This document shows positions 28,060 through 44,976 of a stretch of 64,000 nucleotides of DNA, one piece after another (position 1 is the first letter of the stretch; every line of letters starts with the position of its first letter). The stretch comes from Candidatus Omnitrophota bacterium (GTDB taxonomy: Bacteria; Omnitrophota; Omnitrophia; Omnitrophales; Aquincolibacteriaceae). Below the pieces are notes generated by a model. The model saw only the letters and a program-made list of their open reading frames with translations, searched no databases and was not told where the DNA came from. Position numbers and translations under genes: made by a program. The stretch spans positions 889 through 64,888 of the forward strand of contig DAOSLF010000003.1 of the NCBI GenBank assembly GCA_035368605.1. Reading direction: 5' to 3'.

Positions 28060-28863
28060 TTACATCATTCCGAGAACATGGCCCATATGATAGAGACCCG
28101 TCTTCTTTTTCGCAAGGAATTTTGCCGCCAGAAGCGCGCCCCGGGCCAAAGCTTCGCGGGAAGTAGCCTTGTGGACCAGTTCGACACGCTCCCCATCCCC
28201 GAAAAACGACACCGTATGTTCACCGACCACGTCGCCGCCCCGCATGGCGAATACGCCGATCTTCCCTTGCTGCCGGGCGCCGGTGTCCCCTTCGCGGCCA
28301 CAGACCAGATCCTTCGCCGGGTCCCTGCCTCTTGCATCGGCCAGAATTTCGGCCAGTTTAAGAGCGGTGCCGCTCGGCGCGTCCTTTTTCATCCGGTGGT
28401 GGATTTCCATGATCTCGAGGTCGTAGCTTTCGTCGAGGACCTTGCCCGCGAACGCCGCGAGGCGGAACAGGAGGTTCACCCCCACGCTCATGTTGGGCGA
28501 CTGGACGATCGGTATCTTCTTTGAAGCGAGGGCGATTTTTTTCATCATCCCGGGAGGAATCGCGGTGGTCCCGATCACATACTTCTTCTTCGCCGCGACA
28601 CAGGCCGCAAGGTTATCCGGCAGCGCCGAAAAATGACTGAAATCGATCAGGACATCCGACGTCTTCATGACCGCGACCGGACTGGAATCAATCCGGACAT
28701 TAAGGAGATCGCCGCCGATCAAGGAACCGATATCCATGTCCAGTGTCGCGTGGCCGCGCTGTTCGATGCCGCCCGTGATCCTGAACGCCCTGTCCTTCGC
28801 AGCGAGCTTCAGGATGATCTTTCCCATCCTGCCCGCCGCGCCCGCCACCGCCAATCTGATCAT
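28060..28863 (-). CDS. dapB: 4-hydroxy-tetrahydrodipicolinate reductase
   Basis: MIRLAVAGAAGRMGK... gives full-length DapB similarity. Start set at the internal ATG with a strong AAGGAGAAGGG SD. The ORF-track upstream extension has no support. Confidence 0.9.
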   Translation of the reverse strand: MIRLAVAGAAGRMGKIILKLAAKDRAFRITGGIEQRGHATLDMDIGSLIGGDLLNVRIDSSPVAVMKTSDVLIDFSHFSALPDNLAACVAAKKKYVIGTTAIPPGMMKKIALASKKIPIVQSPNMSVGVNLLFRLAAFAGKVLDESYDLEIMEIHHRMKKDAPSGTALKLAEILADARGRDPAKDLVCGREGDTGARQQGKIGVFAMRGGDVVGEHTVSFFGDGERVELVHKATSREALARGALLAAKFLAKKKTGLYHMGHVLGMM

Positions 28864-28877
28864 ACCCTTCTCCTTAT

Positions 28878-28901
28878 ACCACTCCAACCTACGAGGTTGG
28901 A
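28878..28901. repeat. element A copy 1: 24-nt repeat containing perfect 8-3-8 palindrome TCCAACCT-ACG-AGGTTGGA
   Basis: accactccaacctacgaggttgga is identical to 34999-35022. It lies in the dapA-dapB intercistronic region, directly 5' of the dapB SD on the mRNA. Confidence 0.8.
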
Positions 28902-28907
28902 TTTTGG

Positions 28908-29792
28908 TTAAACGATTTTCAACGTTTTGAGAACTGCCCGCAGTTTCTTCACGTTCTCCGGTTTCATCTCGCAGAGCGGAAGCCGCAGCTCCGGCTTGAT
29001 CATCCCCATCATCCCGAGCGCCGTCTTGGCCGGAATGGGATTCGTCTCGATGAAGACCGCTTTGGAAAGAGGATAGTGTTTCTTGTGGAGTTCCCGCGCC
29101 TTCGCCATATTGCCGTCGAGCGCCGCCCACACCATGTCATGAACGAGCTTCGGCGCGACGTTCGCCGACACCGAGATCACACCCACCGCCCCGGCCGCGA
29201 TCAGCGGGAAGGTCAGGCTGTCCTCGCCCGAAATGACGGGAAGGTCGCAGAGCTGCATGATCTGGTCCGCCTGGTCCATGCTCCCGCTCGCTTCCTTGAT
29301 CGCGACAATATTGTCGATCTTCGAAAGCCGCGCCACGGTCTCAGGCGCGATCGACACTCCGGTACGCCCCGGCACGTTATAAAGGACGATCGGGATGTCA
29401 ACCCGGCCCGCGAGGTATTCGTAGTGGCGGTAGAGACCTTCCTGCGTCGGCTTGTTATAGTACGGCGTCACGATCAGCGCCGCGTCCGCGCCGGTTCGCT
29501 TCGCATGCTGGACAAGGCCGAACGCCTCCGCGGTATTGTTCGACCCGCACCCCGCAATCACGGGGACGCGCCCGTTCACGTAATCGACGACGAACGACAT
29601 TGTGTCACGGTGTTCCTCATGCGACATCGTTGCGGACTCCCCCGTCGTGCCGCAGGGAATGATCACGTCCGTCCCGGCCTTCAGGTGGAAATCGATGAGC
29701 CCCGCCATCGCCTTGCGATCGACCTTACCGCTCCTGAACGGCGTGACAAGCGCAACCATGGAACCCGCGAACCTTATTTTCTTTTTAGCCAT
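28908..29792 (-). CDS. dapA: 4-hydroxy-tetrahydrodipicolinate synthase
   Basis: MAKKKIRFAGSMVALVTPF... has DapA/NAL-family TIM-barrel similarity throughout. Confidence 0.9.
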   Translation of the reverse strand: MAKKKIRFAGSMVALVTPFRSGKVDRKAMAGLIDFHLKAGTDVIIPCGTTGESATMSHEEHRDTMSFVVDYVNGRVPVIAGCGSNNTAEAFGLVQHAKRTGADAALIVTPYYNKPTQEGLYRHYEYLAGRVDIPIVLYNVPGRTGVSIAPETVARLSKIDNIVAIKEASGSMDQADQIMQLCDLPVISGEDSLTFPLIAAGAVGVISVSANVAPKLVHDMVWAALDGNMAKARELHKKHYPLSKAVFIETNPIPAKTALGMMGMIKPELRLPLCEMKPENVKKLRAVLKTLKIV

Positions 29793-29816
29793 GTTCTCTT
29801 CCTTCTCCCTGCCTGA

Positions 29817-30629
29817 TTAAAGAAAATATTCGCCCCGATAGACAACCTGCGCCTTCCCCTGAAGGAAGGCCTTTGTGACGACGGTACCTTTGCGCTCCAG
29901 ATCGATCACAAGCTTCTCGCCGCCCCTCGTGTGGACCGTGACCGGTGTCGCGACATACCCCTTGAGCACGCTCACGACGGAAGAAGCCGTCGATCCCGTC
30001 CCGCACGCGAGCGTCTCGTTCTCGACACCGCGCTCGTACGTCCGGACCATGATCTCGCGCTTGCTCTTCACCTCGACAAAATTCACGTTCGTTCCCGCCG
30101 GCTTGAACTTCGCATGCGTGCGGACTGCCCGTCCGACGGTGGCAACATCGATCTTCCCGAGCCCCTCCACAAAGATCACGATATGCGGGACACCGGTGTC
30201 GACGAACGCGTAGTGGAGCCGGTGGCCGGAGACCTCAAGCATGCCGCTCATCTCAAAAATCCTCGGCTTCACAAGCTGGACCTTCACGTCACCGCTTTGT
30301 CCGACTGCGGCCTCAATGAGTCCGGAGCCCGACTCAAAGATCATCTTTGGGGGCAGTTTGATAACTTCGCGCGCATACAGGGCAATACAACGGAAACCGT
30401 TCCCGCAGGCCGCGGCCTCGGAACCGTCCAGGTTGATGATCCGCATCCTAAAATCCGCCTTCGCGGACTTTTCATAAAGCAGGACGCCGTCCGCGCCCAC
30501 TCCCTGATGAAGCTCGCAGACCCGCTTCGAGAAAGCGGCGGCGTTCTTTACGACCCCCCGTCGGTTGTCCACAACCACGAAATCGTTCCCCGAGGCGACC
30601 ATTTTATAGAAGGGTATTGTTTTTCTCAT
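29817..30629 (-). CDS. dapF: diaminopimelate epimerase
   Basis: ...SGNDFVVVD..., and catalytic Cys motifs (ACGNG, CGTG). Confidence 0.9.
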   Translation of the reverse strand: MRKTIPFYKMVASGNDFVVVDNRRGVVKNAAAFSKRVCELHQGVGADGVLLYEKSAKADFRMRIINLDGSEAAACGNGFRCIALYAREVIKLPPKMIFESGSGLIEAAVGQSGDVKVQLVKPRIFEMSGMLEVSGHRLHYAFVDTGVPHIVIFVEGLGKIDVATVGRAVRTHAKFKPAGTNVNFVEVKSKREIMVRTYERGVENETLACGTGSTASSVVSVLKGYVATPVTVHTRGGEKLVIDLERKGTVVTKAFLQGKAQVVYRGEYFL

Positions 30630-30788
30630 GATAACGTCTTGATAAACCTGCGGTTAGGCGGGCGTATTCTATCAAATCCCCCCCGGGAATCCAAAAGGAT
30701 TGATTGGAAAGGAGCCGGGGAACCGCACGAAGAGTTTTGCGGCCTCTTTCCGGGCCCCCGGATCAAAACTTCGCGAAGGCGGGACAAA

Positions 30789-31013
30789 TCAGGTCTGATT
30801 GTCGCTTTCGGGATTCGTTTTATCGAGTTTCTTGCACACGTCCCTCTTACAGATGCATCCCGTCAACTCCTTCACAATGACGGCCACACCTAGCACGGTC
30901 AGGGCAATCGGGGCCCAGGAGACATTCCACCAGGCGAACACGATCACAAGCACTCCGGCGAGCGCGGAACAGCAACAACACGGACTCTTGTGACTTTCTT
31001 TCTTTTTTTCCAT
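30789..31013 (-). CDS. small (74 aa) cysteine-rich membrane protein, hypothetical
   Basis: Internal ATG with a strong SD (AAAGGGAGGGG). MEKKKESHKSPCCCCSALAGVLVIVFAWWNVSWAPIALTVLGVAVIVKELTGCICKRDVC... has a CCCC motif plus two predicted TM helices. Confidence 0.55.
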   Translation of the reverse strand: MEKKKESHKSPCCCCSALAGVLVIVFAWWNVSWAPIALTVLGVAVIVKELTGCICKRDVCKKLDKTNPESDNQT

Positions 31014-31202
31014 GACCCCCTCCCTTTCTCGGTTAAGCGGCTCAGGCCGGCATCGTCTCACTCATGTTCATGCCGCCCCCTTTCACTTTTATCCACGGGC
31101 ATTCCTTCTGTTGTTTCATTTCTTTCCACTGCTCGGCCGTTGGGATGGCCTTGCGTTCGGCGTCCTTATGGATCGCAATCCACTTGGCCTGCGCCTTGAG
31201 AA

Positions 31203-31245
31203 ATGGGGTCAGTCACCATTTCCCTGAAATGGTGACTGACCCCAT
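31203..31245. repeat. element B copy 1: 43-nt perfect hairpin (19-bp stem, loop CCCTG); terminator-like, 8 nt past the decarboxylase stop
   Basis: atggggtcagtcaccattt-ccctg-aaatggtgactgaccccat, followed by a U-rich tract on both strands. Near-identical to 46915-46957. Confidence 0.8.
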
Positions 31246-31252
31246 TATTTAT

Positions 31253-32434
31253 TTATACGAGAATGACCTTGGCAGGTTCGAAGCCGTTGAAATTGGGGAC
31301 AGCGCTCGCGCAGGAGTAGGCGCCGATATTCTTGACGTAAACAACATCCCCGACGAACAACTCGGGGAACTCTTCGTTCGATGTGAGGATATCAAGCGAA
31401 TCGCAGGTCGGGCCCGCGATCACGCTCATGGTCTTCTGCCCGCGTCGCAAGGTCTTGAACTCGTACTTGCAGTGATCGAACATCATCCCTGAAAAATCCT
31501 GGTAGATGCCATCATTGATGTAGTAGAAGTTCTTGTTGTCGCGGAAGGCCTTCCCCACCACCTGCGTCACGAGCACGCCGGAGGGACCCGCGAAAAACCG
31601 CCCCGGCTCGGCGATAAAATGAGTGGATTTCGGAAAGAGCTCCTTCATCTGCTTGCGGATCTGCGCGGCCATCCGCTCAAAGTTGATGCCGATCTCGTTT
31701 TCAAAGTGAGGTATCGGGAACCCGCCTCCGATATCGACGATCGAAAGCGGCATGCCGTTCTCTTTGGCCTCCCTGAAAATCCCGGCCGTGAGCTCGAGCG
31801 CCTGCAAATAATTTTCGACGTTCGTCGACTGCGAACCGACGTGAAAGCTCACGCCTTTCGGCACGAGCCCGAGGCTTTTCGCCTTCCGCAAGAGACAAAA
31901 CCCCTGGTCCGGTTCCGCGCCGAACTTAAGCGACAGCTGGACGACCGAGCCGCGGTTCTCGACGCGGATCCTCAAGATCACGTGCGCTCCGGGGAAACTC
32001 TCCGCGATCTTGTAAAGCTCGGCTTCGTTGTCGAAGGTCATGAGCCGGACGCGGCGCTTGCGGGCGGTGACGATATCCTCTTTCGACTTGATCGTATTCG
32101 CGAAGATGATGTGGCTCGGTTTCGCGCCCTGCTTGAGGACGAGTTTCATCTCGGCCGCGCTCGCGACGTCGAAGCAGGCCCCGAGCTTCGCGAAATATTT
32201 GACGATCCGCGGATGCGGATTGGCCTTGATCGCGTAATAAGGCGTCACTTCCGGCAGGGCCTTTCGAAAGCGGTTGAACTGCTTCTCGAGGACACTCTTG
32301 CGGATCAAGAGAAAGGGCGTCTTATGCTTTTTCAGCATTTGCCGGATCAGATTCTCGATACCCGAGGACTCCGTCGGCCTGACCGCCTTGTTTAAAAACG
32401 AAATGCTCCCACTCTCAAGAAGGGGCTGTTTCAT
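31253..32434 (-). CDS. PLP-dependent fold-III decarboxylase (ornithine/lysine decarboxylase-like)
   Basis: 393 aa. YAIKANP (PLP-lysine region), FHVGSQ, GGGFP, EPGRF and GPTCDSLD motifs are characteristic of eukaryotic-type ODC/DapDC-family enzymes. The GPTCD active-site Cys is ODC-like. The ATG lies 6 nt after the hss stop. Confidence 0.8.
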   Translation of the reverse strand: MKQPLLESGSISFLNKAVRPTESSGIENLIRQMLKKHKTPFLLIRKSVLEKQFNRFRKALPEVTPYYAIKANPHPRIVKYFAKLGACFDVASAAEMKLVLKQGAKPSHIIFANTIKSKEDIVTARKRRVRLMTFDNEAELYKIAESFPGAHVILRIRVENRGSVVQLSLKFGAEPDQGFCLLRKAKSLGLVPKGVSFHVGSQSTNVENYLQALELTAGIFREAKENGMPLSIVDIGGGFPIPHFENEIGINFERMAAQIRKQMKELFPKSTHFIAEPGRFFAGPSGVLVTQVVGKAFRDNKNFYYINDGIYQDFSGMMFDHCKYEFKTLRRGQKTMSVIAGPTCDSLDILTSNEEFPELFVGDVVYVKNIGAYSCASAVPNFNGFEPAKVILV

Positions 32435-32440
32435 TCCGGA

Positions 32441-33943
32441 TCAACCCCTGTCGTCCACGAGGAAGGAGTTGAACTGCCAAAGCTCGTCCTTTTTCGGCGC
32501 CTTGGCCCCGAACCTCAGGTACTTCGTGTTGAGATTCTGAAGCGGCGTCCAGTCCGAGGGGATCGAAACGAACGGGACGATGTAAGGGGTCGCGAACTTC
32601 AGGATGAACTCGTGATCGATATCATCCGGGAGCAGAAAACCCTTGCGCGGATTGTCGATCATCCAGAGCGCCGCGGCGACCACGGAGACCGCCACCTGGA
32701 GAGTCGTCGCCTGCTGGTGCGCGACCAGTTTGCGCGTCGTGTGGATGTCGAGAAGCGAACCGCACCACCAGGACGTGAAATCATGTCCCATCAGGAGCAC
32801 ACCGAGCTCGTCGCGACCGTCAATGATATCGTCCGAAAGGATGCGCTGGTCCTCGTGCAGCTTGTACTGGCGCATCCGGAGCTCCTGCATCGAAAGGACC
32901 GCGGAATCGCAGGGGCAGTACGCGTAATGCACGGTCGGGCGGTACACGGCCTTGCCGTTCTTCCATACCGTGAGACGGTCGGAGATCGAAAACGCCTCGC
33001 CGTGGCGGATCACCATGCCGTTGATCTCCCCACAGGGCACCCACGAACGAACAAACGTGTTCATGCCAAGCGTGCCGAGGCAAATCTGGTTCTTCGGCCC
33101 CGTCCTGTGCTCATAGCCGTCCCTGGGAAGTTTCTTCTCGTGAGTCCCCCAGCCGAGTTCGGCCGGCGCGACACCCTCCTCATAGAACCCTTCGATCGAC
33201 CAGGTGTTCACGAACTCGTTGACGCGTTTCGGAACGTCCGTGACCTGCGTGTCTCGTTCGCTGATATGGATAACCTTGACGCCTGTTGTCTGCGCGAGCT
33301 TCGCGAAGTTCTTCCCGGCAAGAAAGCGCTCGAGGTTCTTCGCGCGCGGATCCCGCGGCTTTTCCTTCAGAATCTTCTTCGCGATATCGATCAGGGCCTT
33401 CTTTGTGAAATGGGACACAAGGCCGGGATTCGCGCCGTGGTCGACGATCGAAGTCGCGCCCTTCTCGTCGCCCCACTTCTCCTTCATGAGCTTGCGAAGC
33501 TTCATGTGGCGATAGTAGAGCGTGTATTGGGTCGGGTCAGTTCGCTTGTCGTCACGGTAAGGGTCCCATTCCTCGATCGAGGTGTTGACATAGAGGATGT
33601 TGTTTGCGCGACACCAGTCGAGGATCTCCCATGCGTCGATATTCCAGGCGAGGTCGATGATCATATCGCCGCACCCGACGTATTTCGCAAGAAGCTTCCT
33701 GTAATTGTCCCTCGTGACGCGATCGAAGACGTAGCGGACGCCTTTCTTCAGCGCGTCTTTTACACGGTGGCGGTTGTCGACGAAGTCCATAATCGTGATG
33801 TTCTTCGCGGGCATGTCGAAGTGACGCAGGATCAGCGGTGTCGCACATTGCGACACACCCCCGCACCCGATAATCAAGACCTTTCCGTTGAACTTCACGC
33901 GGGTCTCGGGGATGCTGGCTTTGACCTTAGGGTATTTGAACAC
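32441..33943 (-). CDS. hss: homospermidine synthase
   Basis: 500 aa. N-terminal NAD-binding GKVLIIGCGGVSQ, then VFVNTWSIEGF, AELGWGTHE, VRSW, AVYRPTVHYAYCPCDSAVLS, DELGVLLMGH, TGLQV, DWTPL and ELWQFNSFLVDD. All match, from memory, conserved blocks of characterised bacterial homospermidine synthase. GTG start with GGAGGG SD. Confidence 0.8.
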   Translation of the reverse strand: MFKYPKVKASIPETRVKFNGKVLIIGCGGVSQCATPLILRHFDMPAKNITIMDFVDNRHRVKDALKKGVRYVFDRVTRDNYRKLLAKYVGCGDMIIDLAWNIDAWEILDWCRANNILYVNTSIEEWDPYRDDKRTDPTQYTLYYRHMKLRKLMKEKWGDEKGATSIVDHGANPGLVSHFTKKALIDIAKKILKEKPRDPRAKNLERFLAGKNFAKLAQTTGVKVIHISERDTQVTDVPKRVNEFVNTWSIEGFYEEGVAPAELGWGTHEKKLPRDGYEHRTGPKNQICLGTLGMNTFVRSWVPCGEINGMVIRHGEAFSISDRLTVWKNGKAVYRPTVHYAYCPCDSAVLSMQELRMRQYKLHEDQRILSDDIIDGRDELGVLLMGHDFTSWWCGSLLDIHTTRKLVAHQQATTLQVAVSVVAAALWMIDNPRKGFLLPDDIDHEFILKFATPYIVPFVSIPSDWTPLQNLNTKYLRFGAKAPKKDELWQFNSFLVDDRG

Positions 33944-34018
33944 GATCGCTCACCCTCCATTGTTTGAAATTTGACAATAACCGTCACAAAAAACTTTTTC
34001 CCGTGAATCGGAAACCGG

Positions 34019-34047
34019 ATATTACATCATATCGTTTTCTGCATCAA
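34019..34047 (-). promoter_or_regulatory. putative sigma70 promoter of hss-decarboxylase operon (TTGATG-17-TAATAT)
   Basis: The minus strand reads TTGATGcagaaaacgatatgatgTAATAT about 75 nt upstream of the hss GTG. Confidence 0.45.
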
Positions 34048-34191
34048 CCACTAAACCCCGAAAAAACATATTTTTTTAAAAATTCCCCGCCGAAGGCCGA
34101 GAGCCAGGCCTTCAGCCCCAAGCCGCCATTGCGCCTTGACGGAAGCGGGCTTTACGTGGAGAATCTTCCCGCTGTCCAAAAAGGAGCCTTT

Positions 34192-34527
34192 ATGAAAAAA
34201 ATTCTTTGCGCGTTCCTCGCCCTTTCTGTTCTGACATCCGCGACGCCGGTCTTCGCGAATTTCGACAATTTTCAGAAGAGCCCCTGGACCGAAGAGAAGA
34301 CCTATGTCGATAAATCGGTCGGCAAGCTCGCCTTCGGTCTCACGAACATCACAGCCGGCTGGACGGCCCTCTTCTTCGAAACCGCGAAACACGGCAACAT
34401 CTTCGCGGGCATCGCAAAGGGTGTCTGGCGCACCGGGACCAACACCGTGGGCGGCGTTCTCCATGCGGCTACCTTCCCCGTCGCGGTGGATATCCCCCTT
34501 CCTGACGGAGGCGTGAAATTCGAATGA
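34192..34527 (+). CDS. small secreted protein, paralog A (111 aa), K-L-A-F-G-L-x-N-x-x-x-G-W motif family
   Basis: ATG with AAAGGAG SD. Signal peptide MKKILCAFLALSVLTSATPVFA. Shares GKLAFGLTNITAGWTALFFE with the downstream paralog. The stop overlaps the next start (ATGA). Confidence 0.65.
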   Translation: MKKILCAFLALSVLTSATPVFANFDNFQKSPWTEEKTYVDKSVGKLAFGLTNITAGWTALFFETAKHGNIFAGIAKGVWRTGTNTVGGVLHAATFPVAVDIPLPDGGVKFE

Positions 34528-35135
34528 AACGCTTCCTCGCGCTCGCCCTTCTATTGATGATCGCTCTCGCTCCCTCCGCGGTCGCAACGCCATGGGCCGA
34601 AAAGGAAGGTTACGGCGAAAAGACCAAAGGGAAGCTTGCGTTCGGTCTCCGCAACACGTTCCTCGGCTGGACCGAAATGTTCTCGGAGCCGAAGCGCTAC
34701 AAGTTCGACCTCAAGAAGAGCGAATGGGAAGGGTTCTGCATGGGAATCTCGAAGTTCGTCTTTTACACGGCGGACGGTCTGATCCAGCTCGCGACCTTTC
34801 CCATTCCCGTCGACTTCCCCGACTTCGGGGAGGGAGCGGTCCCGGACCTCGGAAAGAAAAAGGAAGGGCCGCCGAAACCGTGGGAGGTTCACGGAAAATC
34901 AAGGTACAGCGTAATTCCCGCCTCGGAAGTCCCGGCCACGATCCGCGTCACCAAAGCGAAGTCACCCGCTCCCGTTCCGCCGCCGATCCAGACTCCCCCG
35001 ACCACTCCAACCTACGAGGTTGGAATGGTTCCCACGACTTCTCTAGCGGAAACCGCGGCCCAGGATACTTCCGGGGTTCCCGAACCGCCGACTCTTGTCG
35101 CGACGCCGGTCCCCGACCTGCCCTACTCGAAATAA
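34524..35135 (+). CDS. small secreted protein, paralog B (203 aa) with Pro/Thr-rich C-terminal tail
   Basis: Signal peptide MKRFLALALLLMIALAPSAVA. GKLAFGLRNTFLGWTEMFSE is paralogous to gene A. Low-complexity PT-rich tail. Element A copy 2 lies inside the tail-coding region. Confidence 0.6.
   Translation: MKRFLALALLLMIALAPSAVATPWAEKEGYGEKTKGKLAFGLRNTFLGWTEMFSEPKRYKFDLKKSEWEGFCMGISKFVFYTADGLIQLATFPIPVDFPDFGEGAVPDLGKKKEGPPKPWEVHGKSRYSVIPASEVPATIRVTKAKSPAPVPPPIQTPPTTPTYEVGMVPTTSLAETAAQDTSGVPEPPTLVATPVPDLPYSK
34999..35022. repeat. element A copy 2 (identical 24-mer with 8-3-8 palindrome), inside coding sequence of paralog B
   Basis: accactccaacctacgaggttgga, identical to 28878-28901. Translated in-frame as PTTPTYEVG. 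Confidence 0.8.
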
Positions 35136-35412
35136 AAACCGCACCCGGGGTTACCCGTTGCGGCGTTTGACTCACGAATCCTGTTCAGCTTCGGACCTGA
35201 TACTCGCGGGCGGAATTCCCTTCGCATTCCACAAAGGCATGCTTCAAGCATTCTCGATCACAACCTGGCAACAACCCTCCGATCCCCGATCCTCCGCCCG
35301 CGCGTGAACATACCCCGAGAAGACCAGGTCAGGGATCAGCACAGGCAGGAAAAAGCTCTGCGGGGACCGTTTGCACCGCATCACACCGATGCGATGTTCG
35401 CTCTTTTCCCTA

Positions 35413-36237
35413 TTACTCCGCCGCCAGAAATCCGTGGACGATGTTGACGAACACCTCGCGCTCTTCCATATGGATCGAGTGGGCCACGGCGGGGATGCAC
35501 CGGTAAACGCTGCCAGGGATCATCTTCGAAAGCGCCTCCGCTTCTTCCGGAAGGATCAGCACGTCCTCCCCGCCCTCGAGAACAAGCGTCCGGGCCTTGA
35601 TCCCTCCGAGACGCCCGCGTGCGTCGAACGAAGCGACCGCGTCAATCTGCCCCTTGAATCCGGGAAGCTGCTGCCGGTAACGATCGCGGATGCCCCGTTT
35701 CACGAGCGCCGCAACGAAACTTTCCCGGGAAAGAACGCTCGGCGAAAAAAGCCAGCGGGTCCATTCGCGGAGCCACGCCTCGAGATCCCCCCCCTGCGCA
35801 AGGTCCCTGTAAAATTTCAGGAAAAGCTCGTTGTTCCTCCCGGAAGAAACGGCCGCGGTGCTCGACAGGACGAGCCGGTCGACGCGCTCCGGATACCGGA
35901 TCGCAAGCTCCTGGGCAATAAAACCTCCGAGGGAATGACCCAGAACATGCGCCCGCCCGACCTTGAAATGATCGAGCACCCGCAGGACGTCCTCCGCCAT
36001 TTCGATGACGCTGTACGGCTTTCCCGGAATCGAACTGCGCCCCGCGCCCCGGTTGTCGAGCGTCAGGATGCGGTACTGCTTCGGAAGTCTCGCGATCACC
36101 CCGTTCCAGTTCGAGCTGTCGGTCCCAAGCCCCGCGATCAAAAGAAGCGGCGCCCCCTCCCCGCGCGACTCGCAGTAGATCGCGACCTCGCCCGGAAGTT
36201 TCTCCCCCTTATGCGTTCGTCGTTCGTGAGTGGTCAT
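35413..36237 (-). CDS. alpha/beta-fold hydrolase
   Basis: GHSLGG nucleophile elbow (GxSxG), ...LLLIAGLG... and a C-terminal His region. Start chosen at the ATG (MTTHERR). The ORF-track start at 36291 is TTG. Confidence 0.7.
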   Translation of the reverse strand: MTTHERRTHKGEKLPGEVAIYCESRGEGAPLLLIAGLGTDSSNWNGVIARLPKQYRILTLDNRGAGRSSIPGKPYSVIEMAEDVLRVLDHFKVGRAHVLGHSLGGFIAQELAIRYPERVDRLVLSSTAAVSSGRNNELFLKFYRDLAQGGDLEAWLREWTRWLFSPSVLSRESFVAALVKRGIRDRYRQQLPGFKGQIDAVASFDARGRLGGIKARTLVLEGGEDVLILPEEAEALSKMIPGSVYRCIPAVAHSIHMEEREVFVNIVHGFLAAE

Positions 36238-36446
36238 GGGTTTCACAGTCTGTCTTTTAGACTCTAGTCCCGCTAATTCCCGGTCGATCAAGTTCGTTTT
36301 TCAACAAAAACAATCCTGTTTTTGGAAAAATCCCGGATCAATGGCTAACAACCAGTTTCTGCCGGAAAACCACAAAGAATATCTACTATGGTTTCAACAA
36401 AAAAGGCCGTGCCGAAACGCCGGCACGGCCCCGATTTTCAAAAACC

Positions 36447-37727
36447 CTAAACACATTCACCCCGAACCAGGTCCTGGTAGGTCTCGCGTTTGCGGACGAT
36501 CCTGAAGGAGCTTCCCTTCACCATCACCTCGCAGGCGCGACCGCGGGAATTGTAGTTGGAACTCATCGTAAAACCGTAGGCACCCGCGGTCATAATCGTG
36601 AGGCATTCGCCGGGCCGCATTTCGGGAAGCTCCCGATCCTTCGCAAAAAAGTCCCCGCTTTCGCAGATGGGACCAACCACATCGTACACCCAGCGCCGGG
36701 CATCCGGGCGTTTCTGGACGGGCCAGATCGCGTGGTAGGCGTTGTAGAACGCGGGACGGATCAGGTCGTTCATACCCGCGTCCGTAATAAAAAATTTTTT
36801 CACGTTCGTTTCCTTCACATAGAGGATCTTCGCGGCGAGCACACCCGCGTTCCCCACGATGAAACGCCCGGGTTCGAAGATGACCTGGAACTTGCGTTTC
36901 CTGAGCAGGGGGAGGATCTTCGACGCGAACTCGTCTGCCGTCTGCGGGTCCTCGTCGCTATAGATGATGCCAAGGCCGCCGCCGAGGTTGAGGAACCTTA
37001 TCTTCATGCCCGCCGCCTCGATCTCATCGATAAATTCCAGTATCTTGCGGAATGCCTCGACAAAGGGCTCCCCCGTTTCGATCTGGGAACCGATATGGAC
37101 ATGAACACCCGTGAGCCGGGCGTGCGCGAGCGTCTTGCTCGCGAGGTAGATCGCACGCGCGCGTTCAAAGTCGATGCCGAACTTGGTCTCGGCCTTGCCG
37201 GTCGTGATGTAGTCGTGCGTGTGCGGGTCGACGTTCGGGTTGATGCGCAGCGACACATTCACTTTCTTTCGCATCTTCTTCGCGAGCGCGTTGATGCGCT
37301 CGAGCTCGGGCACGGACTCGACGTTGAAAAGGAGGATGCGAGCCCTGATCGCCTCGCGAATCTCCTCGTCCTTTTTTCCGACGCCGGCGTAGACGATCTT
37401 CCGGCCCTGGCATTTCACCTTCCTCGCGCGGAAGAGCTCGCCGCCTGAGACAATGTCGAGGCCGGAGCCCTTCGCGACGAGCGCCCTCAGGACCGCAAGG
37501 TTCGAATTGGCCTTCACGGAATAACAGATCAGGGGCCGCACGGAGCGGAACGCGCGCTGGAGCTTCGCGAGGTGGTCGGTGAGCGTCTTCGAGCTGTAGA
37601 TATACGCGGGCGTGCCGGTCTTCTCCAGGATCTTCCTGAGCGGGACATTCTCGCAGCAGAGCTCGCCCTTCCGGTTATAGCAGAAATCGTGCATCCGGGA
37701 TTCTTCTTCGAAATCGATTCGTGACAT
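36447..37727 (-). CDS. lysA: diaminopimelate decarboxylase
   Basis: YSVKANSN, HIGSQ, GGGLG, EPGR and GPICESGD motifs of fold-III DapDC. ATG with GAGGT SD. Last gene of the arg operon. Confidence 0.9.
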   Translation of the reverse strand: MSRIDFEEESRMHDFCYNRKGELCCENVPLRKILEKTGTPAYIYSSKTLTDHLAKLQRAFRSVRPLICYSVKANSNLAVLRALVAKGSGLDIVSGGELFRARKVKCQGRKIVYAGVGKKDEEIREAIRARILLFNVESVPELERINALAKKMRKKVNVSLRINPNVDPHTHDYITTGKAETKFGIDFERARAIYLASKTLAHARLTGVHVHIGSQIETGEPFVEAFRKILEFIDEIEAAGMKIRFLNLGGGLGIIYSDEDPQTADEFASKILPLLRKRKFQVIFEPGRFIVGNAGVLAAKILYVKETNVKKFFITDAGMNDLIRPAFYNAYHAIWPVQKRPDARRWVYDVVGPICESGDFFAKDRELPEMRPGECLTIMTAGAYGFTMSSNYNSRGRACEVMVKGSSFRIVRKRETYQDLVRGECV

Positions 37728-37833
37728 AATCGTTACCTCGATTTTCCAGGATAGTTAACTCCCCTCTTTCCTGGGAGGGGCCGGGGGAGATTTCAGATTC
37801 CCCTGGATTCCCCCTTGGCCGAAGGGGGAACGT

Positions 37834-39213
37834 TCAAGCAAGCAGTCTCGTCCAATAGTCCATCTGCTGACGGACCTTGAGGGGATGCGTGCTGCCGATG
37901 GTCTTCTTGCCACGGACCGAAGTCTCGGGGTCGAAGAGATCGTAAATATCCGCGCCGATCCCGGGGGAGAACCTCTTCCACTCCCTGAGCGAAAGTTCCC
38001 GCAGCCCCTTGCCCGACTCCGCGGCGAAGCGCACGGCCTGGCCGACGGTCGAGTGGGCCTCCGAGAACGGGACCTTCTTGCGGACGAGGTACTCAAGGAT
38101 GTCCGTGGCGAAGAGCGTGTCGTCCGCGACCGCTTTCGCCATCGCCTTTTTCTGCCAGGTTGCGGACGCGACCGTGAGTGCGAGCACTTCAAGGGCGATC
38201 GTCGTCTTGTGGACCGCATCGAATGCGCCGGGCTTATCCTCCTGGAGGTCCCGGTTATAAGAAAGCGGCAGTCCCTTCTGGACGGTCAGGATCGACTGCA
38301 GATGCCCGAAGATCACCCCGGCCCTGCCCCGCACGAGCTCAAAGACATCAGGGTTCTTCTTCTGCGGCATCAGGCTGGAGCCCGTCGCGAACGCGTCGTC
38401 GAGCTCGACATACCCGAATGCCTCCGAGTTCCAGAGGATGAAATCCTCGGCGAGCCTCGAAAGATGCATCCAGAGGATCGAAAGGTTCGCCAGAAATTCC
38501 GCAAGGAACCCCCGGTCGCTCACGGCGGTCATGCTGTTTCGGGCGATTTTTTCGAAGCCGAGCTCCTTCGCGAGGAATTTTTGATCGATCGGAAGCGCGG
38601 AACCCGCGAGCGCCGCGGAACCGATCGGGAGGATATTGACGCGCTTCAAGGTGTCGGCAAGTCGGGCCTTGTCCTCCTCGAGCATCTCGACATAGGCGAG
38701 GAGGTGATGCGCGAGCAGCACCGGCTGGGCCTTCCTCAGATGCGTCATGCCGGGGACAATGGCCCCCTGGGCTTTTTCCGCCGCGGCGACGAGCGCCTTC
38801 TGGAGACGCGAGGTTTCATACCGTATCACCGCGATCTTTTCCCGGAGGCAGACCCGGGTGGACGTGACGACGAGGTCGTTCCGGCTGCGGCCCGTGTGGA
38901 GTTTCTTCGCGACCGCGCCTGAGCGCTTTTCGAGTTCGCTTTGGATCAGGGTGTGAATGTCTTCGACCTCCGCGACATAGCGGGCGATGTCTTTTCCCTC
39001 GAGGTCCTTCTCGATCCGCGCGAGGCCTTTCAGGATCGCCTTCGATTCGGCCTGTGTGATGATCGCGGTCCGCGCGAGCATCTTCGCCCACGCCGCGTTT
39101 ACGGCGAGTTCCGCGTCAAAGAGCTCTTTGTCGACGGCGAGCGAATAGCTGAAGCATCTCAACGCCGGATGCATTTCCTTCTTGAACCGACCGCCCCAGA
39201 GTTTTTTGGACAT
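37834..39213 (-). CDS. argH: argininosuccinate lyase
   Basis: MSKKLWGGRF... and full-length fumarase/ASL-family similarity. Confidence 0.95.
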   Translation of the reverse strand: MSKKLWGGRFKKEMHPALRCFSYSLAVDKELFDAELAVNAAWAKMLARTAIITQAESKAILKGLARIEKDLEGKDIARYVAEVEDIHTLIQSELEKRSGAVAKKLHTGRSRNDLVVTSTRVCLREKIAVIRYETSRLQKALVAAAEKAQGAIVPGMTHLRKAQPVLLAHHLLAYVEMLEEDKARLADTLKRVNILPIGSAALAGSALPIDQKFLAKELGFEKIARNSMTAVSDRGFLAEFLANLSILWMHLSRLAEDFILWNSEAFGYVELDDAFATGSSLMPQKKNPDVFELVRGRAGVIFGHLQSILTVQKGLPLSYNRDLQEDKPGAFDAVHKTTIALEVLALTVASATWQKKAMAKAVADDTLFATDILEYLVRKKVPFSEAHSTVGQAVRFAAESGKGLRELSLREWKRFSPGIGADIYDLFDPETSVRGKKTIGSTHPLKVRQQMDYWTRLLA

Positions 39214-39287
39214 ATTTACCCCCAGCTTGGAGCCCAGCGACGAGAGCCAAGAGCTGTTCCAGGCTCTTCGTTTTTCGCCCTTCGCGC

Positions 39288-40472
39288 TTAGCTTTTATAC
39301 ATTCCCTCGTACGGAAGGCCCCAGAGTTTCATGAACCCCGTCGCGGCCGTCCGGTCGAAGAGATCGCCCTTTGAATACGTCGCGAGTTTTTCCCGGTAGA
39401 GCGCAAACTTTGATTCGCGGCCCACGCAGATCGCGTGGCCCCGGTCGAGCTTGATCCTCACTTTTCCCGTGACACGCGCCTGGTTGGAGGCAAAGAAGGC
39501 GTCGAGGGCTTTTCTCAGGGGCGAGAACCAGAGCCCGAAATAGACAAGCTCGGCATATTTTTCGCTGAGCACGCGCTTGTAATGGATGAACTCGCGGTCC
39601 ATGACGAAGCCCTCGAGCTCGTCGTGGGCCTTCAGGAGCACATCCGCGGCCGGGGCCTCGTAGACCTCGCGGCTCTTGATCCCGACCAGGCGATTCTCGA
39701 TCATGTCAAAACGCCCGACGCCGTAGGCGCCCGCGACTGCATTGAGCCTGTCGATCAGCGTCACGAGCGGCATCTTCTTTCCGTCAAGGCTGACCGGCAC
39801 GCCCTTCACGAAACCGATCTCGATGTAGCGCGGCTTCTTCGGCGTCTTGTCACAGGCCTTTGTCATCACGTACGCGTCTTCCGGCGGCTCGAGCATGGGG
39901 TCTTCCAAAATCCCGGCCTCGATCGCGATCCCCCAGATGTTCTTGTCGATCGAGTAGATGCTTTTTTTCGTCACATCGATCGGGATACATTTCTCCCGCG
40001 CGTATTCGATCTCTTCTTCGCGGGTCTTAAACTCCCACTCGCGGAGCGGGGCAATGATCTTGAGATCCGGATTGAGCGCCCTCACCCCCACTTCAAGGCG
40101 GACCTGATCGTTGCCCTTGCCCGTGCAACCGTGCGCCACGGCCTCGGCGCCCTCGCGTTCAGCGACCTCGACCAGGTGCTTCGCGATCATGGGACGCCCG
40201 AGCGCGGTCGCGAGCGGATATTTCCCCTCGTAACGCGCGTGGGCCCAGATCGCGGGAAGGATGTAGTCCTTCGCGAACTCGTCCTTGAGATCGACGATGA
40301 AGGTCTTGAGCGCGCCGGCGGCTTTCGCGCGCTTGATCAGCTTGGTCTTGTCCTTGACTTCCCCGATGAACGCGGAAAAACAGATGACCTCGTAGCCGTA
40401 ATGTTCCTGCAGCCATTTCACGGCGCAGGAAGTGTCAAGTCCGCCTGAATATGCCAGCACTATTTTTTTCAT
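39288..40472 (-). CDS. argG: argininosuccinate synthase
   Basis: MKKIVLAYSGGLDTS... (PP-loop) and full-length ArgG similarity. Confidence 0.95.
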   Translation of the reverse strand: MKKIVLAYSGGLDTSCAVKWLQEHYGYEVICFSAFIGEVKDKTKLIKRAKAAGALKTFIVDLKDEFAKDYILPAIWAHARYEGKYPLATALGRPMIAKHLVEVAEREGAEAVAHGCTGKGNDQVRLEVGVRALNPDLKIIAPLREWEFKTREEEIEYAREKCIPIDVTKKSIYSIDKNIWGIAIEAGILEDPMLEPPEDAYVMTKACDKTPKKPRYIEIGFVKGVPVSLDGKKMPLVTLIDRLNAVAGAYGVGRFDMIENRLVGIKSREVYEAPAADVLLKAHDELEGFVMDREFIHYKRVLSEKYAELVYFGLWFSPLRKALDAFFASNQARVTGKVRIKLDRGHAICVGRESKFALYREKLATYSKGDLFDRTAATGFMKLWGLPYEGMYKS

Positions 40473-40541
40473 TGTTTCATCCTTTTCAATGACTGAAGGC
40501 CGGAAATGTTCCGGTTTTTCAAAAATCGATCGTCCCCAGCC

Positions 40542-41471
40542 TTATTGGATCGCTCCTTCGTTAAAGAGATGAAGCAAAACGGCCTTCTGGATGTGAAGCC
40601 GGTTCTCGGTTTCGTCGAATACGATGCAGTTCTTGCTTTCCATGACACTGTCGGTGATCTCCTCGCCGCGGTGCGCCGGCAGGCAGTGCATGATGAGCAC
40701 GTTTTTCCTGGCCTTCGCGACGAGCTCCCTATTGACCTGCATGCCCTGAAAGTCCTTCAGCTTCTTCTTCCGCATCGCCTCTTCGCCCATACTGACCCAG
40801 ACATCGGTGTAAATCGCATCCGCTCCGGCCACGGCCCTGGCGGGGTCAAAGAACCCTTCGATCACGGCCCCCGTCTTTTTCGCGATTTCCCGCGCGGTCC
40901 TCACGATCTTGGCGTCGGGCTGGTATTTCTTCGGCGTCGCGTAACGGATCTTCGCGCCCAGTTTCGCCGCGACAAGGATCAGCGAGTGCAGGACATTGTT
41001 GCCATCCCCTACGAACGCGAGGACGGGGTCTTTTTCGGCGGGGATCTTCTCATACAGCGTCATGTAATCCGCAAGCGCCTGGCAGGGATGCTCCTTGTCG
41101 CTCAAGCCGTTGATGACGGGTTTGTCGAAGTAGTCCCGGAACTCGGTAATTGTCCAGTGCGAAAAGGTTCGCATGACGACCCCCGCGAGGTACCGGTTGA
41201 GGACGCGCGCGACATCCCGCACCTCTTCCCGCACGCCGAGCTGGATGTCCTCGGGTCCGAGGTAGATCACACCGCCTCCCATCGCAAAGATGCCCGCCTG
41301 GAACGAAACCCAGGTCCTGGTCGACGGTTTCTCGAAAATGAAACCGAACATGCGTCCCTCGAGAACGTTCCGGAAATCCTGCGGCCGGGCCTTGAGATCC
41401 GCCGCAAGTGCGAACAACTTTTTGATCTCGTCCGTGCTGAGGTCGTTGATCGAGATCAATGAGTCGAACAT
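40542..41471 (-). CDS. argF: ornithine carbamoyltransferase
   Basis: STRTWVSFQ carbamoyl-phosphate motif and HCLP ornithine-binding motif. Confidence 0.9.
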   Translation of the reverse strand: MFDSLISINDLSTDEIKKLFALAADLKARPQDFRNVLEGRMFGFIFEKPSTRTWVSFQAGIFAMGGGVIYLGPEDIQLGVREEVRDVARVLNRYLAGVVMRTFSHWTITEFRDYFDKPVINGLSDKEHPCQALADYMTLYEKIPAEKDPVLAFVGDGNNVLHSLILVAAKLGAKIRYATPKKYQPDAKIVRTAREIAKKTGAVIEGFFDPARAVAGADAIYTDVWVSMGEEAMRKKKLKDFQGMQVNRELVAKARKNVLIMHCLPAHRGEEITDSVMESKNCIVFDETENRLHIQKAVLLHLFNEGAIQ

Positions 41472-42679: not shown

Positions 42680-42748
42680 AGCCCTGTGTTCAGTTCTCAG
42701 CCCTCGGCATTCAGCCTTTACTGATAGCTGATCGCTGATGGCTGATCC

Positions 42749-43603
42749 CTATAGAGTTATTTCCGTTCCGATTCCCTGATCGGTAAAAATCTCGAGTAGC
42801 AACGCGTGCGGGATGCGCCCGTCGATGATGTGCGCTTTGGGGACACCGCCCTCAAGCGCGTCGATGCAGGCCTTCACCTTCGGGATCATGCCTCCCGAGA
42901 TGATCTGCTGGTCGATCAGCCTCTGCGTGTCGCCCACGCACAGTGACGGGATCAGGGTGCTTTCATCCTTGAAATCGCGCAGGATGCCCCTCACGTTCGT
43001 AAGCACCATGAACTTCTGGACTTGCATGGCGGCCGCGATGTTGGCCGCCGCCTCGTCCGCGTTCACGTTGTATATTTCGCCGTCCGGCCCCTTACCGACC
43101 GGAAAGATCACGGGAATCTTTCCGAACCCCGTCAGTTCCTTGATCGGGACCGTGTTGACCGAGGACACGTCGCCGACGAAACCGATGTCCCCGTGTTCCG
43201 TGTTCTTCACGACACTCAGGACCTTTGCGTCGTAACCGGAAAGACCGACCGCCGAACCGCCGAGCCGTTCGATGTCGTGAACGATGCCGCGGTTGAGCTC
43301 GGCCAGCGTTTCGTTGACAACCGAAATCGCGGGTTTGTCCGTCACGCGCAGTCCGTTGATAAACTGGCTCTGGATGCCCTTTTTCTTCATGTTCTCGGTG
43401 ATGTACTTGCCGCCGCCGTGAATCAGGACCGGACGGATACCGACGTAGCTCATGAACACGAGATCCTGGAGCACCATGTCCCGCACTTCCTGGTACGTGA
43501 GCGCGGCACCGCCATACTTGATGAGAACTTCCTTGCCGCGGAATTTCTGAATGTACGGAAGCGCTTCGATGAGGACGCCGGCCTTTTTGATCAGTTCCTG
43601 CAT
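42749..43603 (-). CDS. argB: acetylglutamate kinase
   Basis: ...LIKYGGAAL... amino-acid-kinase fold with full-length similarity. No SD upstream (A-rich leader). Confidence 0.9.
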   Translation of the reverse strand: MQELIKKAGVLIEALPYIQKFRGKEVLIKYGGAALTYQEVRDMVLQDLVFMSYVGIRPVLIHGGGKYITENMKKKGIQSQFINGLRVTDKPAISVVNETLAELNRGIVHDIERLGGSAVGLSGYDAKVLSVVKNTEHGDIGFVGDVSSVNTVPIKELTGFGKIPVIFPVGKGPDGEIYNVNADEAAANIAAAMQVQKFMVLTNVRGILRDFKDESTLIPSLCVGDTQRLIDQQIISGGMIPKVKACIDALEGGVPKAHIIDGRIPHALLLEIFTDQGIGTEITL

Positions 43604-43677
43604 TTTTTCGTGTGGAGCGCAGCGTGTTCGGCGTGGAGTTTTCCCCTACGCTCTACACTGCACGCTCTTCCCTTTCT

Positions 43678-44898: not shown

Positions 44899-44976
44899 CG
44901 AGAACTGCTCTCCCTTAGATTGACTTGCATAGCGGTTTTCGCACTTCGTTCACAGCGATCATATCGTGAAGCGGTT

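What the first reader, a model, noticed from the sequence alone, without database searches (positions are those of the whole stretch)
34192..35135. Tandem, translationally coupled paralogs encoding small secreted proteins with a K-L-A-F-G-L-x-N-x-x-x-G-W-x-E motif
Both products have signal peptides and share a conserved block (GKLAFGLTNITAGWTALFFE versus GKLAFGLRNTFLGWTEMFSE). The genes overlap by ATGA. From memory this motif resembles the small exosortase-system-associated family (TIGR04073-like), but I cannot verify that here. Paralog B has acquired a Pro/Thr-rich tail containing the palindromic element A. They diverge from hss and are otherwise unlinked to recognisable partners, so their function is open.
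Basis: partly seen in the sequence, partly recalled or inferred. Interest (0 to 1): 0.5.

Follow-up and report, generated by a model that had tools for sequence, protein, structure and literature searches.

The report
Paired secreted helical-hairpin envelope proteins
Two overlapping genes in an uncultivated Omnitrophota bacterium encode a conserved pair of small exported helical-hairpin proteins, distant relatives of the uncharacterised 'exosortase-associated' TIGR04073 family, that probably work together in the cell envelope; their function is still unknown.

Summary
Gene A (34192-34527, 111 aa) and gene B (34524-35135, 203 aa) overlap by ATGA. Both have signal-peptide-like N-termini and are true paralogs (37% identity, E 4e-16; profile-profile E 2e-28).

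The only curated family either one hits is TIGR04073, at 25.8 and 22.9 bits against a cut-off of 50. They are remote homologs, not members.

The A+B tandem is present in 20 of 21 species-level Omnitrophota genomes, always tightly coupled. A and B form separate clades with matching topologies, so the duplication is old and the two have co-evolved.

AlphaFold predicts a glycine-faced helical hairpin for A (pLDDT 88), with no significant structural match. B has the same hairpin at lower confidence, plus a disordered tail.

B-type tails are unalignable and vary from about 27 to over 340 aa. Many nevertheless end in a conserved PYSK(K) or [IV]K motif.

Flanking genes are housekeeping and differ between clades. 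I found no exosortase and no PEP-CTERM tail in the window or in about 0.94 Mb around relatives. One distant sub-lineage places a member in an amidase / peptidoglycan-binding lipoprotein operon.

Best reading: a self-contained periplasmic A:B complex. The exosortase link is unsupported, and the function remains inferred.

The parts
34136..34164 (+). Sigma-70-like promoter match (TTGACG-17-GAGAAT) in the 248-nt gap between the divergent hss-like gene and gene A
   Evidence: Consensus scan only, 9/12 matches. Weak evidence.
34180..34186 (+). Shine-Dalgarno-like AAAGGAG, five nt before A's ATG
   Evidence: Read directly from the sequence.
34192..34527 (+). Gene A, 111 aa. It is the compact paralog and ends ...DIPLPDGGVKFE.
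   Evidence: ORF and sequence. An identical protein, P0001, is in NCBI as a hypothetical protein of Candidatus Omnitrophota MAGs. TIGR04073 score 25.8 bits.
34192..34257 (+). Predicted Sec signal peptide of A (MKKILCAFLALSVLTSATPVFA)
   Evidence: Rule-based: n-region, h-region and an AxA-type site. AlphaFold helix 2-16. Mean hydrophobicity 0.46. Cleavage was not tested.
34303..34470 (+). Helical hairpin of A (helices 38-66 and 70-93). Conserved face residues are K45, G49, N52, G56, W57 on helix 1 and G73, G77, T85, G88, H91 on helix 2.
   Evidence: AlphaFold2 pLDDT 88.4, pTM 0.73. Family-wide column conservation.
34507..34511 (+). GGAGG within A's DGGV codons, 12 nt before B's ATG; candidate ribosome-binding site for B
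   Evidence: Read directly from the sequence. Its function is inferred.
34524..34527 (+). ATGA start/stop overlap of A and B
   Evidence: The same -4 overlap occurs in L001 and L007.
34524..35135 (+). Gene B, 203 aa: signal peptide, hairpin domain and a disordered tail
   Evidence: ORF. An identical protein, P0030, is in public data. TIGR04073 score 22.9 bits.
34587..34835 (+). Hairpin domain of B (residues 22-104), with a longer inter-helix loop (KRYKFDLKKSEWEG)
   Evidence: AlphaFold helices 30-48/51-54 and 67-90, pLDDT about 80. Alignment to A.
34836..35132 (+). Disordered Pro/Thr/Val-rich tail of B (residues 105-203)
   Evidence: pLDDT about 50-65 and no regular secondary structure. Composition. 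Homologous tails cannot be aligned and range from 27 to over 340 aa.
35121..35132 (+). Extreme C-terminal motif P-Y-S-K of B
   Evidence: The motif recurs at B-type C-termini despite unrelated tails: APYSKK, DPYSRIK, SPYVK and ..[IV]K. Of 33 long-tailed representatives, 16 end in K (binomial p 3e-7).
35001..35029 (+). 13+13 nt palindrome (ACCACTCCAACCT-ACG-AGGTTGGAATGGT) inside B's tail coding region
   Evidence: the repeat finder I4. RNA fold -17.5 kcal/mol, z -3.7. A second copy lies at 28878-28902, between dapA and dapB.
35139..35163 (+). Stem-loop four nt after B's stop codon, a possible weak terminator. The next gene is convergent.
   Evidence: Fold -16.2 kcal/mol but z only -1.2, and the U tract is short. 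The terminator scan did not call it.

Best explanation
A and B are a self-contained bicistronic unit. Both products are exported by Sec, and each folds into a small amphipathic, glycine-faced helical hairpin. The two paralogs are made together and probably assemble into an A:B hetero-oligomer in the periplasm or cell envelope; two hairpins would give a four-helix bundle. B additionally carries an intrinsically disordered Pro/Thr/Ala-rich spacer. This spacer presents a conserved C-terminal PYSK-type motif to another envelope component. The pair is therefore most likely a structural or scaffolding element of the diderm envelope.

They belong to a distinct clade of the superfamily whose only curated model is TIGR04073. 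Nothing ties them to exosortase.

Shown: paralogy; deep conservation and co-divergence of the pair; tight translational coupling; the predicted fold; the disordered tail; the C-terminal motif.

Inferred: signal-peptide cleavage; periplasmic location; hetero-oligomerisation; the docking role of the tail.
For: Paralogy.

Pair conservation: the tandem is present in 20 of 21 species-level Omnitrophota genomes. Junctions are overlaps of 4 or 14-20 nt, or gaps of 3-13 nt.

Co-divergence: a neighbour-joining tree separates A and B into two clades with congruent internal topology. Single-copy genes branch at the base of the A clade.

Self-contained unit: flanking genes are housekeeping and differ between clades. 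Examples are hss/ODC/lysA here, rplM-rpsI in L001, clpB in L003, and an aminotransferase with folK, panC and uvrA in another subclade.

Fold: AlphaFold gives a helical hairpin at pLDDT 88 for A, and the same hairpin plus a disordered tail for B. Conserved Gly/Asn/Thr residues line one face of each helix, and charged positions at 45, 51, 59, 63, 76 and 84 argue against a transmembrane hairpin.

Export: 140 of 148 relatives have hydrophobic N-termini, and a few have lipoboxes.

Diderm host: the window encodes FadL-like and AsmA-like proteins and SecDF.

Envelope context elsewhere: in a distant sub-lineage the family gene sits in an operon with an Amidase_3, PG_binding_1 lipoproteins and a Gly-zipper lipoprotein. 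That arrangement is kept between two genomes whose family proteins are only 40% identical.

Tandem arrays of 2-3 members recur in other lineages.

The C-terminal motif is conserved despite unalignable tails.
Against: - No experiment or paper exists for this family or for TIGR04073.
- No heteromer model could be computed.
- Signal peptides were judged by rule only. An uncleaved signal anchor is possible.
- The helices are fairly hydrophobic (mean H 0.28-0.39), so membrane insertion is not excluded.
- The peptidoglycan-related operon is confined to one distant sub-lineage: a PG-binding lipoprotein lies directly upstream in only 4 of 36 testable loci of that scan. It is absent around the Omnitrophota pairs.
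- The terminal-Lys enrichment could partly reflect Lys-rich tails.
Confidence: 0.5

Rival explanations
1. Exosortase-system accessory proteins. As the TIGR04073 name implies, A and B would act with an exosortase / PEP-CTERM sorting system encoded elsewhere in the genome.
For: TIGR04073 is the only curated family hit by both proteins and by 137 of 148 relatives. Omnitrophota belong to the PVC group, and from my own knowledge some PVC phyla are rich in PEP-CTERM proteins.
Against: Scores are about half the curated cut-off, and no relative reaches it. The 64-kb window has no exosortase-like multi-TM protein; the only multi-TM protein is SecDF. A regex scan found no PEP-CTERM-type tail in the window, in 506 kb of Omnitrophota and related loci, or in a further 431 kb around distant members. 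The neighbours found are housekeeping or peptidoglycan-related. From memory, the family's 'association' rests on phylogenetic profiling rather than experiment, and no paper mentions it.
Confidence: 0.12
2. Inner-membrane-anchored or membrane-inserted hairpins. The N-terminal segment would be an uncleaved signal anchor, or the Gly-rich hairpin would insert into a membrane as a re-entrant or oligomeric element, giving a small membrane-protein complex rather than a soluble periplasmic one.
For: The helix segments LAFGLTNITAGWTALFF and TNTVGGVLHAATFPVAV are uncharged and rich in Gly, Ala and Thr. The weak structural neighbours include membrane hairpins such as the AhlB head, MotA and small respiratory subunits.
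Against: Family-wide, helix positions 51, 59, 63, 76 and 84 are mostly charged. B's helix 1 has a mean hydrophobicity of only 0.06. AxA-type cleavage motifs directly precede the conserved SPW in most members. The fold matches are not significant.
Confidence: 0.15
3. A secreted two-component membrane-active toxin or bacteriocin-like pair, in which two complementary GxxxG helical peptides act together on a target cell.
For: The genes are tandem, the proteins are small and exported with glycine-faced helices, and Omnitrophota are suspected episymbionts or predators (own knowledge).
Against: There is no immunity gene, ABC exporter or double-glycine leader nearby. The pair is embedded in housekeeping synteny. 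It is conserved and co-diverging across the phylum rather than fast-evolving or patchy. PADLOC and PHROGs gave no hits.
Confidence: 0.04

Closest known systems
NCBIfam TIGR04073, 'exosortase system-associated protein, TIGR04073 family' (uncharacterised)
   Same: Homologous over HMM positions 3-66 of 75, from the K-x3-[FY]G-x2-N-x3-GW helix through to the TFP motif. Both are small proteins with an N-terminal signal peptide. It is the only curated model hit by A, B and 137 of 148 relatives.
   Different: All scores are below the curated cut-off (23-26 bits here; best relative E 1.8e-10; cut-off 50 bits). The Omnitrophota clade is a fixed A+B pair, with a disordered tail and a PYSK C-terminus on B. 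No exosortase or PEP-CTERM genes were found nearby.
WXG100 / EsxA-EsxB pairs of type VII secretion (architectural analogy only; own knowledge)
   Same: Helix-turn-helix hairpin proteins of about 90-100 aa, encoded as adjacent paralogs. In the Esx case they form a heterodimeric four-helix bundle, and one partner has a flexible C-terminal tail carrying a short motif.
   Different: There is no sequence or Pfam match, even at E<=1. A and B have Sec signal peptides, whereas WXG100 proteins have none. The host is a diderm with no T7SS context. The A:B heterodimer is inferred, not shown.
Braun's lipoprotein Lpp (C-terminal ...KYRK; Lys linked to peptidoglycan mDAP by L,D-transpeptidases; own knowledge; distribution from bioRxiv 10.1101/2021.05.31.446380)
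   Same: A small helical envelope protein whose extreme C-terminus has an aromatic residue followed by x-Lys. B-type proteins end in PYSK, PYSKK, PYSRIK or PYVK.
   Different: A and B have no lipobox and no Pfam LPP hit. The fold is a hairpin, not a trimeric coiled coil. The conserved Lys is sometimes penultimate (YSKK, YSKE, YSKR, YSKG). No YkuD-type motif was seen in 0.5 Mb of loci. Covalent attachment is untested.
Class IIb two-peptide bacteriocins (own knowledge)
   Same: Two adjacent genes encode complementary helical peptides with GxxxG-type faces.
   Different: A and B are much larger, use Sec rather than double-glycine leaders, lack immunity and ABC-transporter genes, and are deeply conserved within housekeeping synteny.

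Membership tests
TIGR04073 (NCBIfam subfamily model) | Whole-protein HMM score at or above the curated cut-off of 50 bits | tested here: not met
   A scores 25.8 bits and B 22.9 bits. Ten distant relatives score 16-38 bits. The best of 148 relatives reaches E 1.8e-10.
TIGR04073 (NCBIfam subfamily model) | Statistically significant homology over the 75-position domain | tested here: met
   E 8.1e-6 for A and 6.4e-5 for B, covering HMM positions 3-66 of 75. 137 of 148 relatives match at E<=0.01.
TIGR04073 (NCBIfam subfamily model) | Small protein with an N-terminal signal peptide | tested here: met
   Judged by rule only: MKK/MKR, hydrophobic core and AxA motif. 140 of 148 relatives have a hydrophobic N-terminal segment. 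No dedicated predictor was available.
TIGR04073 (NCBIfam subfamily model) | Occurrence in genomes that encode an exosortase / PEP-CTERM system (the basis of the family name, as I recall it) | not testable with these tools
   Whole genomes could not be retrieved. Locally, the window has no exosortase-like protein. About 0.94 Mb around family genes has no PEP-CTERM-type tail.
WXG100 (Pfam PF06013) | Pfam match, and no Sec signal peptide | tested here: not met
   No Pfam family at E<=1 apart from a weak LPAM_1 hit. Both proteins have signal-peptide-like N-termini.
Lpp (Pfam PF04728) | Lipobox with an acylated Cys, and an LPP repeat match | tested here: not met
   No LPP hit. No lipobox: the Cys at A position 6 is too close to the N-terminus.
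Lpp (Pfam PF04728) | C-terminal Lys covalently bound to peptidoglycan | not testable with these tools
   B ends in ...PYSK, and the motif recurs in homologs. The chemistry is untested.
Class IIb bacteriocin locus | Double-glycine leader, with an adjacent immunity gene and ABC exporter | tested here: not met
   The leaders are Sec-type. The neighbours are hss-like, an alpha/beta hydrolase and lysA.

The most novel reading that the evidence does not exclude
The A/B pair could be a previously unrecognised tether or spacer between outer membrane and peptidoglycan in Omnitrophota. In this reading the A:B hairpin bundle sits at the outer membrane or on an envelope partner. B's disordered Pro-rich tail spans the periplasm. 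Its conserved C-terminal P-Y-S-K is then attached to, or docks on, peptidoglycan, in analogy to the Y-R-K terminus of Lpp.

Lpp itself is confined to a subclade of Gammaproteobacteria, and some PVC-group phyla have no known tether (bioRxiv 10.1101/2021.05.31.446380).
Probability: 0.08. Interest if true: 0.75.

Novelty: new variant of a known kind. Interest (0 to 1): 0.35.

Why it matters
The TIGR04073 superfamily is a 'known unknown'. It has a curated name that implies an exosortase link, but no experiment and no literature that I could find.

This work adds four things:
- A large sister clade (402 cluster representatives at E<=0.001) sits outside the curated cut-off.
- In Omnitrophota the clade exists as a fixed, co-evolving two-gene unit.
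- Its predicted fold is a Gly-faced hairpin with no solved counterpart.
- One partner carries a disordered spacer that ends in a conserved short motif.

This gives a concrete, testable hypothesis (heteromeric envelope scaffold, possible peptidoglycan docking) for a phylum whose envelope biology is almost unknown. It also warns against propagating the 'exosortase-associated' label to these proteins. If the function turns out to be a minor structural one, the finding is of modest, specialist interest.

Tried and rejected
- Pfam returned nothing for A or B even at E<=1, apart from a weak LPAM_1 signal-peptide hit. PHROGs and PADLOC returned nothing.
- Literature searches for 'TIGR04073' and 'exosortase system-associated protein' found 0 papers. 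'Omnitrophica' with 'PEP-CTERM' found 0, and 'Omnitrophota' with 'exosortase' found 1 irrelevant paper.
- A third homology search, seeded with distant members to reach named canonical TIGR04073 proteins, returned only unnamed metagenomic proteins. Cluster look-up added no organism names beyond Omnitrophota for A.
It was redone with A-type sequences only.
- Rfam and tRNA scans of the window found nothing, so there is no riboswitch or leader upstream of A.
- A functional link to the adjacent hss/ODC genes was considered. A single-copy relative (L005) also lies near Sacchrp_dh and ODC genes, but the other 20 loci do not, so I read this as residual synteny.
- P0031, an 85%-identical 'variant' of B with a different tail, is the same DNA with four homopolymer-type deletions in a 2x-coverage assembly. 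It is an artefact, not a variant.
- A motif search for a YkuD L,D-transpeptidase in 0.5 Mb of loci found none. This says nothing about the rest of those genomes.
- The peptidoglycan-operon context could not be generalised. It holds for one sub-lineage only.

Full report
**1. What is there**

Gene A runs from ATG 34192 to TGA 34525-34527 and encodes 111 aa. Gene B runs from ATG 34524 to TAA 35133-35135 and encodes 203 aa. The stop of A and the start of B share ATGA at 34524-34527. A has AAAGGAG five nt upstream of its start. B has GGAGG at 34507-34511, inside the codons for A's conserved DGGV.

The unit is bounded by a divergent hss-like gene at 32441-33943 (-). The near-identical copy of that gene in L034 carries Sacchrp_dh_NADP and Sacchrp_dh_C. 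On the other side lies a convergent alpha/beta hydrolase at 35413-36291 (-). A weak sigma-70-like match lies at 34136-34164. A modest stem-loop follows B's stop at 35139-35163.

Protein A is identical to hypothetical proteins of Candidatus Omnitrophota / Omnitrophica MAGs such as ADurb.Bin314. The host is a diderm: the window encodes a FadL-family outer-membrane protein, an AsmA-like protein and SecDF.

**2. Is it more than chance?**

Yes. A and B are 37% identical over 93 aa (E 4e-16). Profiles of their respective orthologs match at 99.8% probability, E 2e-28. The shared block lies well after the predicted signal-peptidase sites, in the first predicted helix. It is therefore not a signal-peptide artefact.

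**3. Family assignment**

NCBIfam gives one meaningful hit for each protein, TIGR04073 ('exosortase system-associated protein'). A scores 25.8 bits (E 8e-6) and B 22.9 bits (E 6e-5), against a curated cut-off of 50. Pfam, PHROGs, PADLOC and PDB sequences give nothing.

An exhaustive profile search of 1.84 billion cluster representatives found 402 relatives at E<=0.001 and 172 at E<=1e-10. Of the best 146 plus A and B, 137 hit TIGR04073, but the best E-value is only 1.8e-10. Ten of the weakest-scoring listed representatives, scanned one by one, score 16-38 bits.

The proteins belong to a sizeable sister clade that the curated model does not capture.

**4. Conservation of the pair**

A scan of one genome per species (GTDB r232) returned 21 loci. 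All were Omnitrophota or unnamed MAGs. Twenty of them carry an A-type gene directly followed by a B-type gene. Junctions are -4 (ATGA), -14 to -20, or +3 to +13 nt. The exception, L027, has a single copy, as does a more distant relative, L005.

A neighbour-joining tree of the core domains separates A and B into two clades with the same internal branching order. The single-copy genes branch at the base of the A clade. The duplication therefore predates the radiation of these lineages, and the two genes have been kept together and co-diverged since. This is the pattern expected for obligate partners.

Tandem arrays of two or three family members also occur in unrelated lineages.

**5. Structure**

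AlphaFold2 with a 30-sequence alignment gives A a signal helix, then a helical hairpin (helices 38-66 and 70-93), then an extended C-terminal segment. Mean pLDDT is 88.4 and pTM 0.73. B gives the same hairpin at pLDDT about 80, with a longer inter-helix loop and a tail without structure.

Family-wide, the nearly invariant residues lie on one face of each helix or in the C-terminal segment. On helix 1 they are K45, G49, N52, G56 and W57. On helix 2 they are G73, G77, T85, G88 and H91. In the C-terminal segment they are T94-F95-P96, D100, P102 and G107.

Positions 51, 59, 63, 76 and 84 are mostly charged. Hydrophobic moments are 0.26-0.39. This points to an amphipathic, tightly packed hairpin rather than a transmembrane one.

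**6. The tail of B**

B-type tails range from about 27 to more than 340 aa. They are rich in Ala, Pro, Glu, Lys, Ser and Thr and cannot be aligned. In the window the tail is 21.5% Pro and 12.9% Thr.

The extreme C-terminus is nevertheless recurrent:
- ...PDLPYSK in the window;
- ...PDPYSRIK in Bin277;
- ...NPPK[PS]YAPYSKK in eight short-tailed species (variants: YSKE, YSKR, YSKG);
- ...SPYVK and many ...[IV]K endings elsewhere.

Sixteen of 33 long-tailed representatives end in Lys (p 3e-7 against a generous 12% expectation). In 0.5 Mb of loci, the motif at a C-terminus occurred only in B-type genes, apart from one near-match in a short ORF of unclear status.

A conserved short motif at the end of a variable disordered spacer suggests a docking or attachment site. 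The similarity to the ...YRK terminus of Lpp is noted as a lead only. There is no lipobox and no LPP match, and the Lys is sometimes penultimate.

**7. Genomic context and the exosortase question**

Around the Omnitrophota pairs the neighbours are housekeeping genes and change between clades:
- dapF, dapA, dapB, an ODC-like gene, the hss-like gene, then (after the pair) a hydrolase, lysA and argH in the window;
- rplM-rpsI in L001;
- clpB in L003;
- an aminotransferase, folK, panC, uvrA and recO in the 121-aa subclade.

No gene other than the partner paralog is consistently linked.

The window contains no exosortase-like polytopic protein; the only multi-TM protein is SecDF. A regex for PEP-CTERM-type tails found none in the window, in 506 kb of loci, or in a further 431 kb around distant members. 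I checked by hand that the regex accepts a canonical example written from memory. Whole genomes could not be examined, so genome-level co-occurrence remains untested.

One positive hint for an envelope role comes from a distant sub-lineage. In L030 and L033 the family proteins are 40% identical. There the gene lies in a conserved cluster with this order:
- a sensor kinase;
- a sigma-54 response regulator;
- an Amidase_3;
- PG_binding_1 proteins;
- small lipoproteins;
- the family member;
- a Gly-zipper lipoprotein.

A metagenome scan showed that this context is confined to that sub-lineage.

**8. Interpretation**

The best-supported picture is a self-contained, co-translated pair of Sec-exported hairpin proteins. 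They probably form an A:B hetero-oligomer in the periplasm or envelope, and B contributes a disordered spacer ending in a conserved docking motif.

The steps shown are paralogy, pair conservation and co-divergence, coupling, the predicted fold, the disordered tail and the motif. The inferred steps are cleavage, localisation, heteromerisation and what the motif binds.

The rivals are an exosortase accessory role, a membrane-inserted or signal-anchored form, and a toxin-like pair. The report's rival-explanations entries give each one's evidence and refuting result.

The most novel reading not excluded is a new outer-membrane to peptidoglycan tether. This would be of interest because Lpp is restricted to a subclade of Gammaproteobacteria and some PVC-group phyla lack any known tether (bioRxiv 10.1101/2021.05.31.446380). 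I give it about 8%.

**9. Verdict**

This is a divergent, paired variant of an already catalogued but uncharacterised family. It is solidly real and conserved, of moderate interest, and its function is still open.

Noticed in passing
window 35001-35029 and window 28878-28902: A 24-nt palindromic element (ACCACTCCAACCT-ACG-AGGTTGGA) occurs twice. One copy lies inside B's tail coding region. The other lies in the ~40-nt gap between dapA (28908-29792, -) and dapB (28060-28866, -). None is expected by chance, similarity stops at the element, and there are no copies in 30 related loci. It may be a small REP-like mobile palindrome that can sit inside a low-constraint coding tail.
   Followed up: partly
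window 2-8263, minus strand: An open reading frame of at least 2754 codons starts near 8263 and runs off the left edge of the window. It is a giant secreted or surface-type protein, as often reported for Omnitrophota. Two further large genes lie at 21656-26419 (1587 aa, with SdrD_B and FlgD_ig hits) and 50775-54917 (1380 aa).
   Followed up: no
window 28060-46002: The A/B pair is embedded in a long Lys/DAP/Arg biosynthesis supercluster. By tool hits: dapB, dapA, dapF, an ODC-like gene, the hss-like gene, then (after the pair) a hydrolase and lysA. By ORF size and synteny with L001: argH, then ArgJ and ArgC. In L001 (Bin277) the same pair sits next to rplM-rpsI, about 4 kb from an AsmA / RNase III / ArgC / ArgJ block that the window also has at 43.7-49.4 kb, so the pair has moved within otherwise conserved synteny.
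   Followed up: partly
L034:1837-2160 compared with window 34860-35180: The 213-aa 'variant' of B (P0031) comes from a 2x-coverage contig. That contig is identical to the window except for four homopolymer-type deletions that shift the tail's reading frame. It is an assembly artefact.
   Followed up: yes
window 33964-34527: One public gene call (JGI, P0213, 187 aa) starts A at the upstream TTG 33964. ATG 34192, with its Shine-Dalgarno sequence and signal peptide, matches all orthologs. The 187-aa call is over-extended.
   Followed up: yes
L030:5700-9524 and L033:4168-7831: A conserved cluster in an unidentified non-Omnitrophota lineage contains, in order: a sensor kinase, a sigma-54 response regulator, an Amidase_3, a double PG_binding_1 protein, two small proteins, a PG_binding_1 lipoprotein, the TIGR04073-like protein and a Gly-zipper lipoprotein. 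It looks like a regulated cell-wall remodelling module.
   Followed up: partly
L014:10335-10721 and L023:10311-10730: In two species the B-type protein continues past the usual ...APYSKK terminus with a short aromatic or hydrophobic extension (QKHFFIF, RNYFLGFF). It is unclear whether this is a real variant or stop-codon read-through.
   Followed up: no
L011, L013, L017, L020, L021, L023, L025, L026 (A/B junctions): In the 121-aa-A subclade the A and B genes overlap by 17 nt rather than 4. A there ends ...GGIAYEYKK, so both partners finish with a Tyr/Lys-rich terminus.
   Followed up: no
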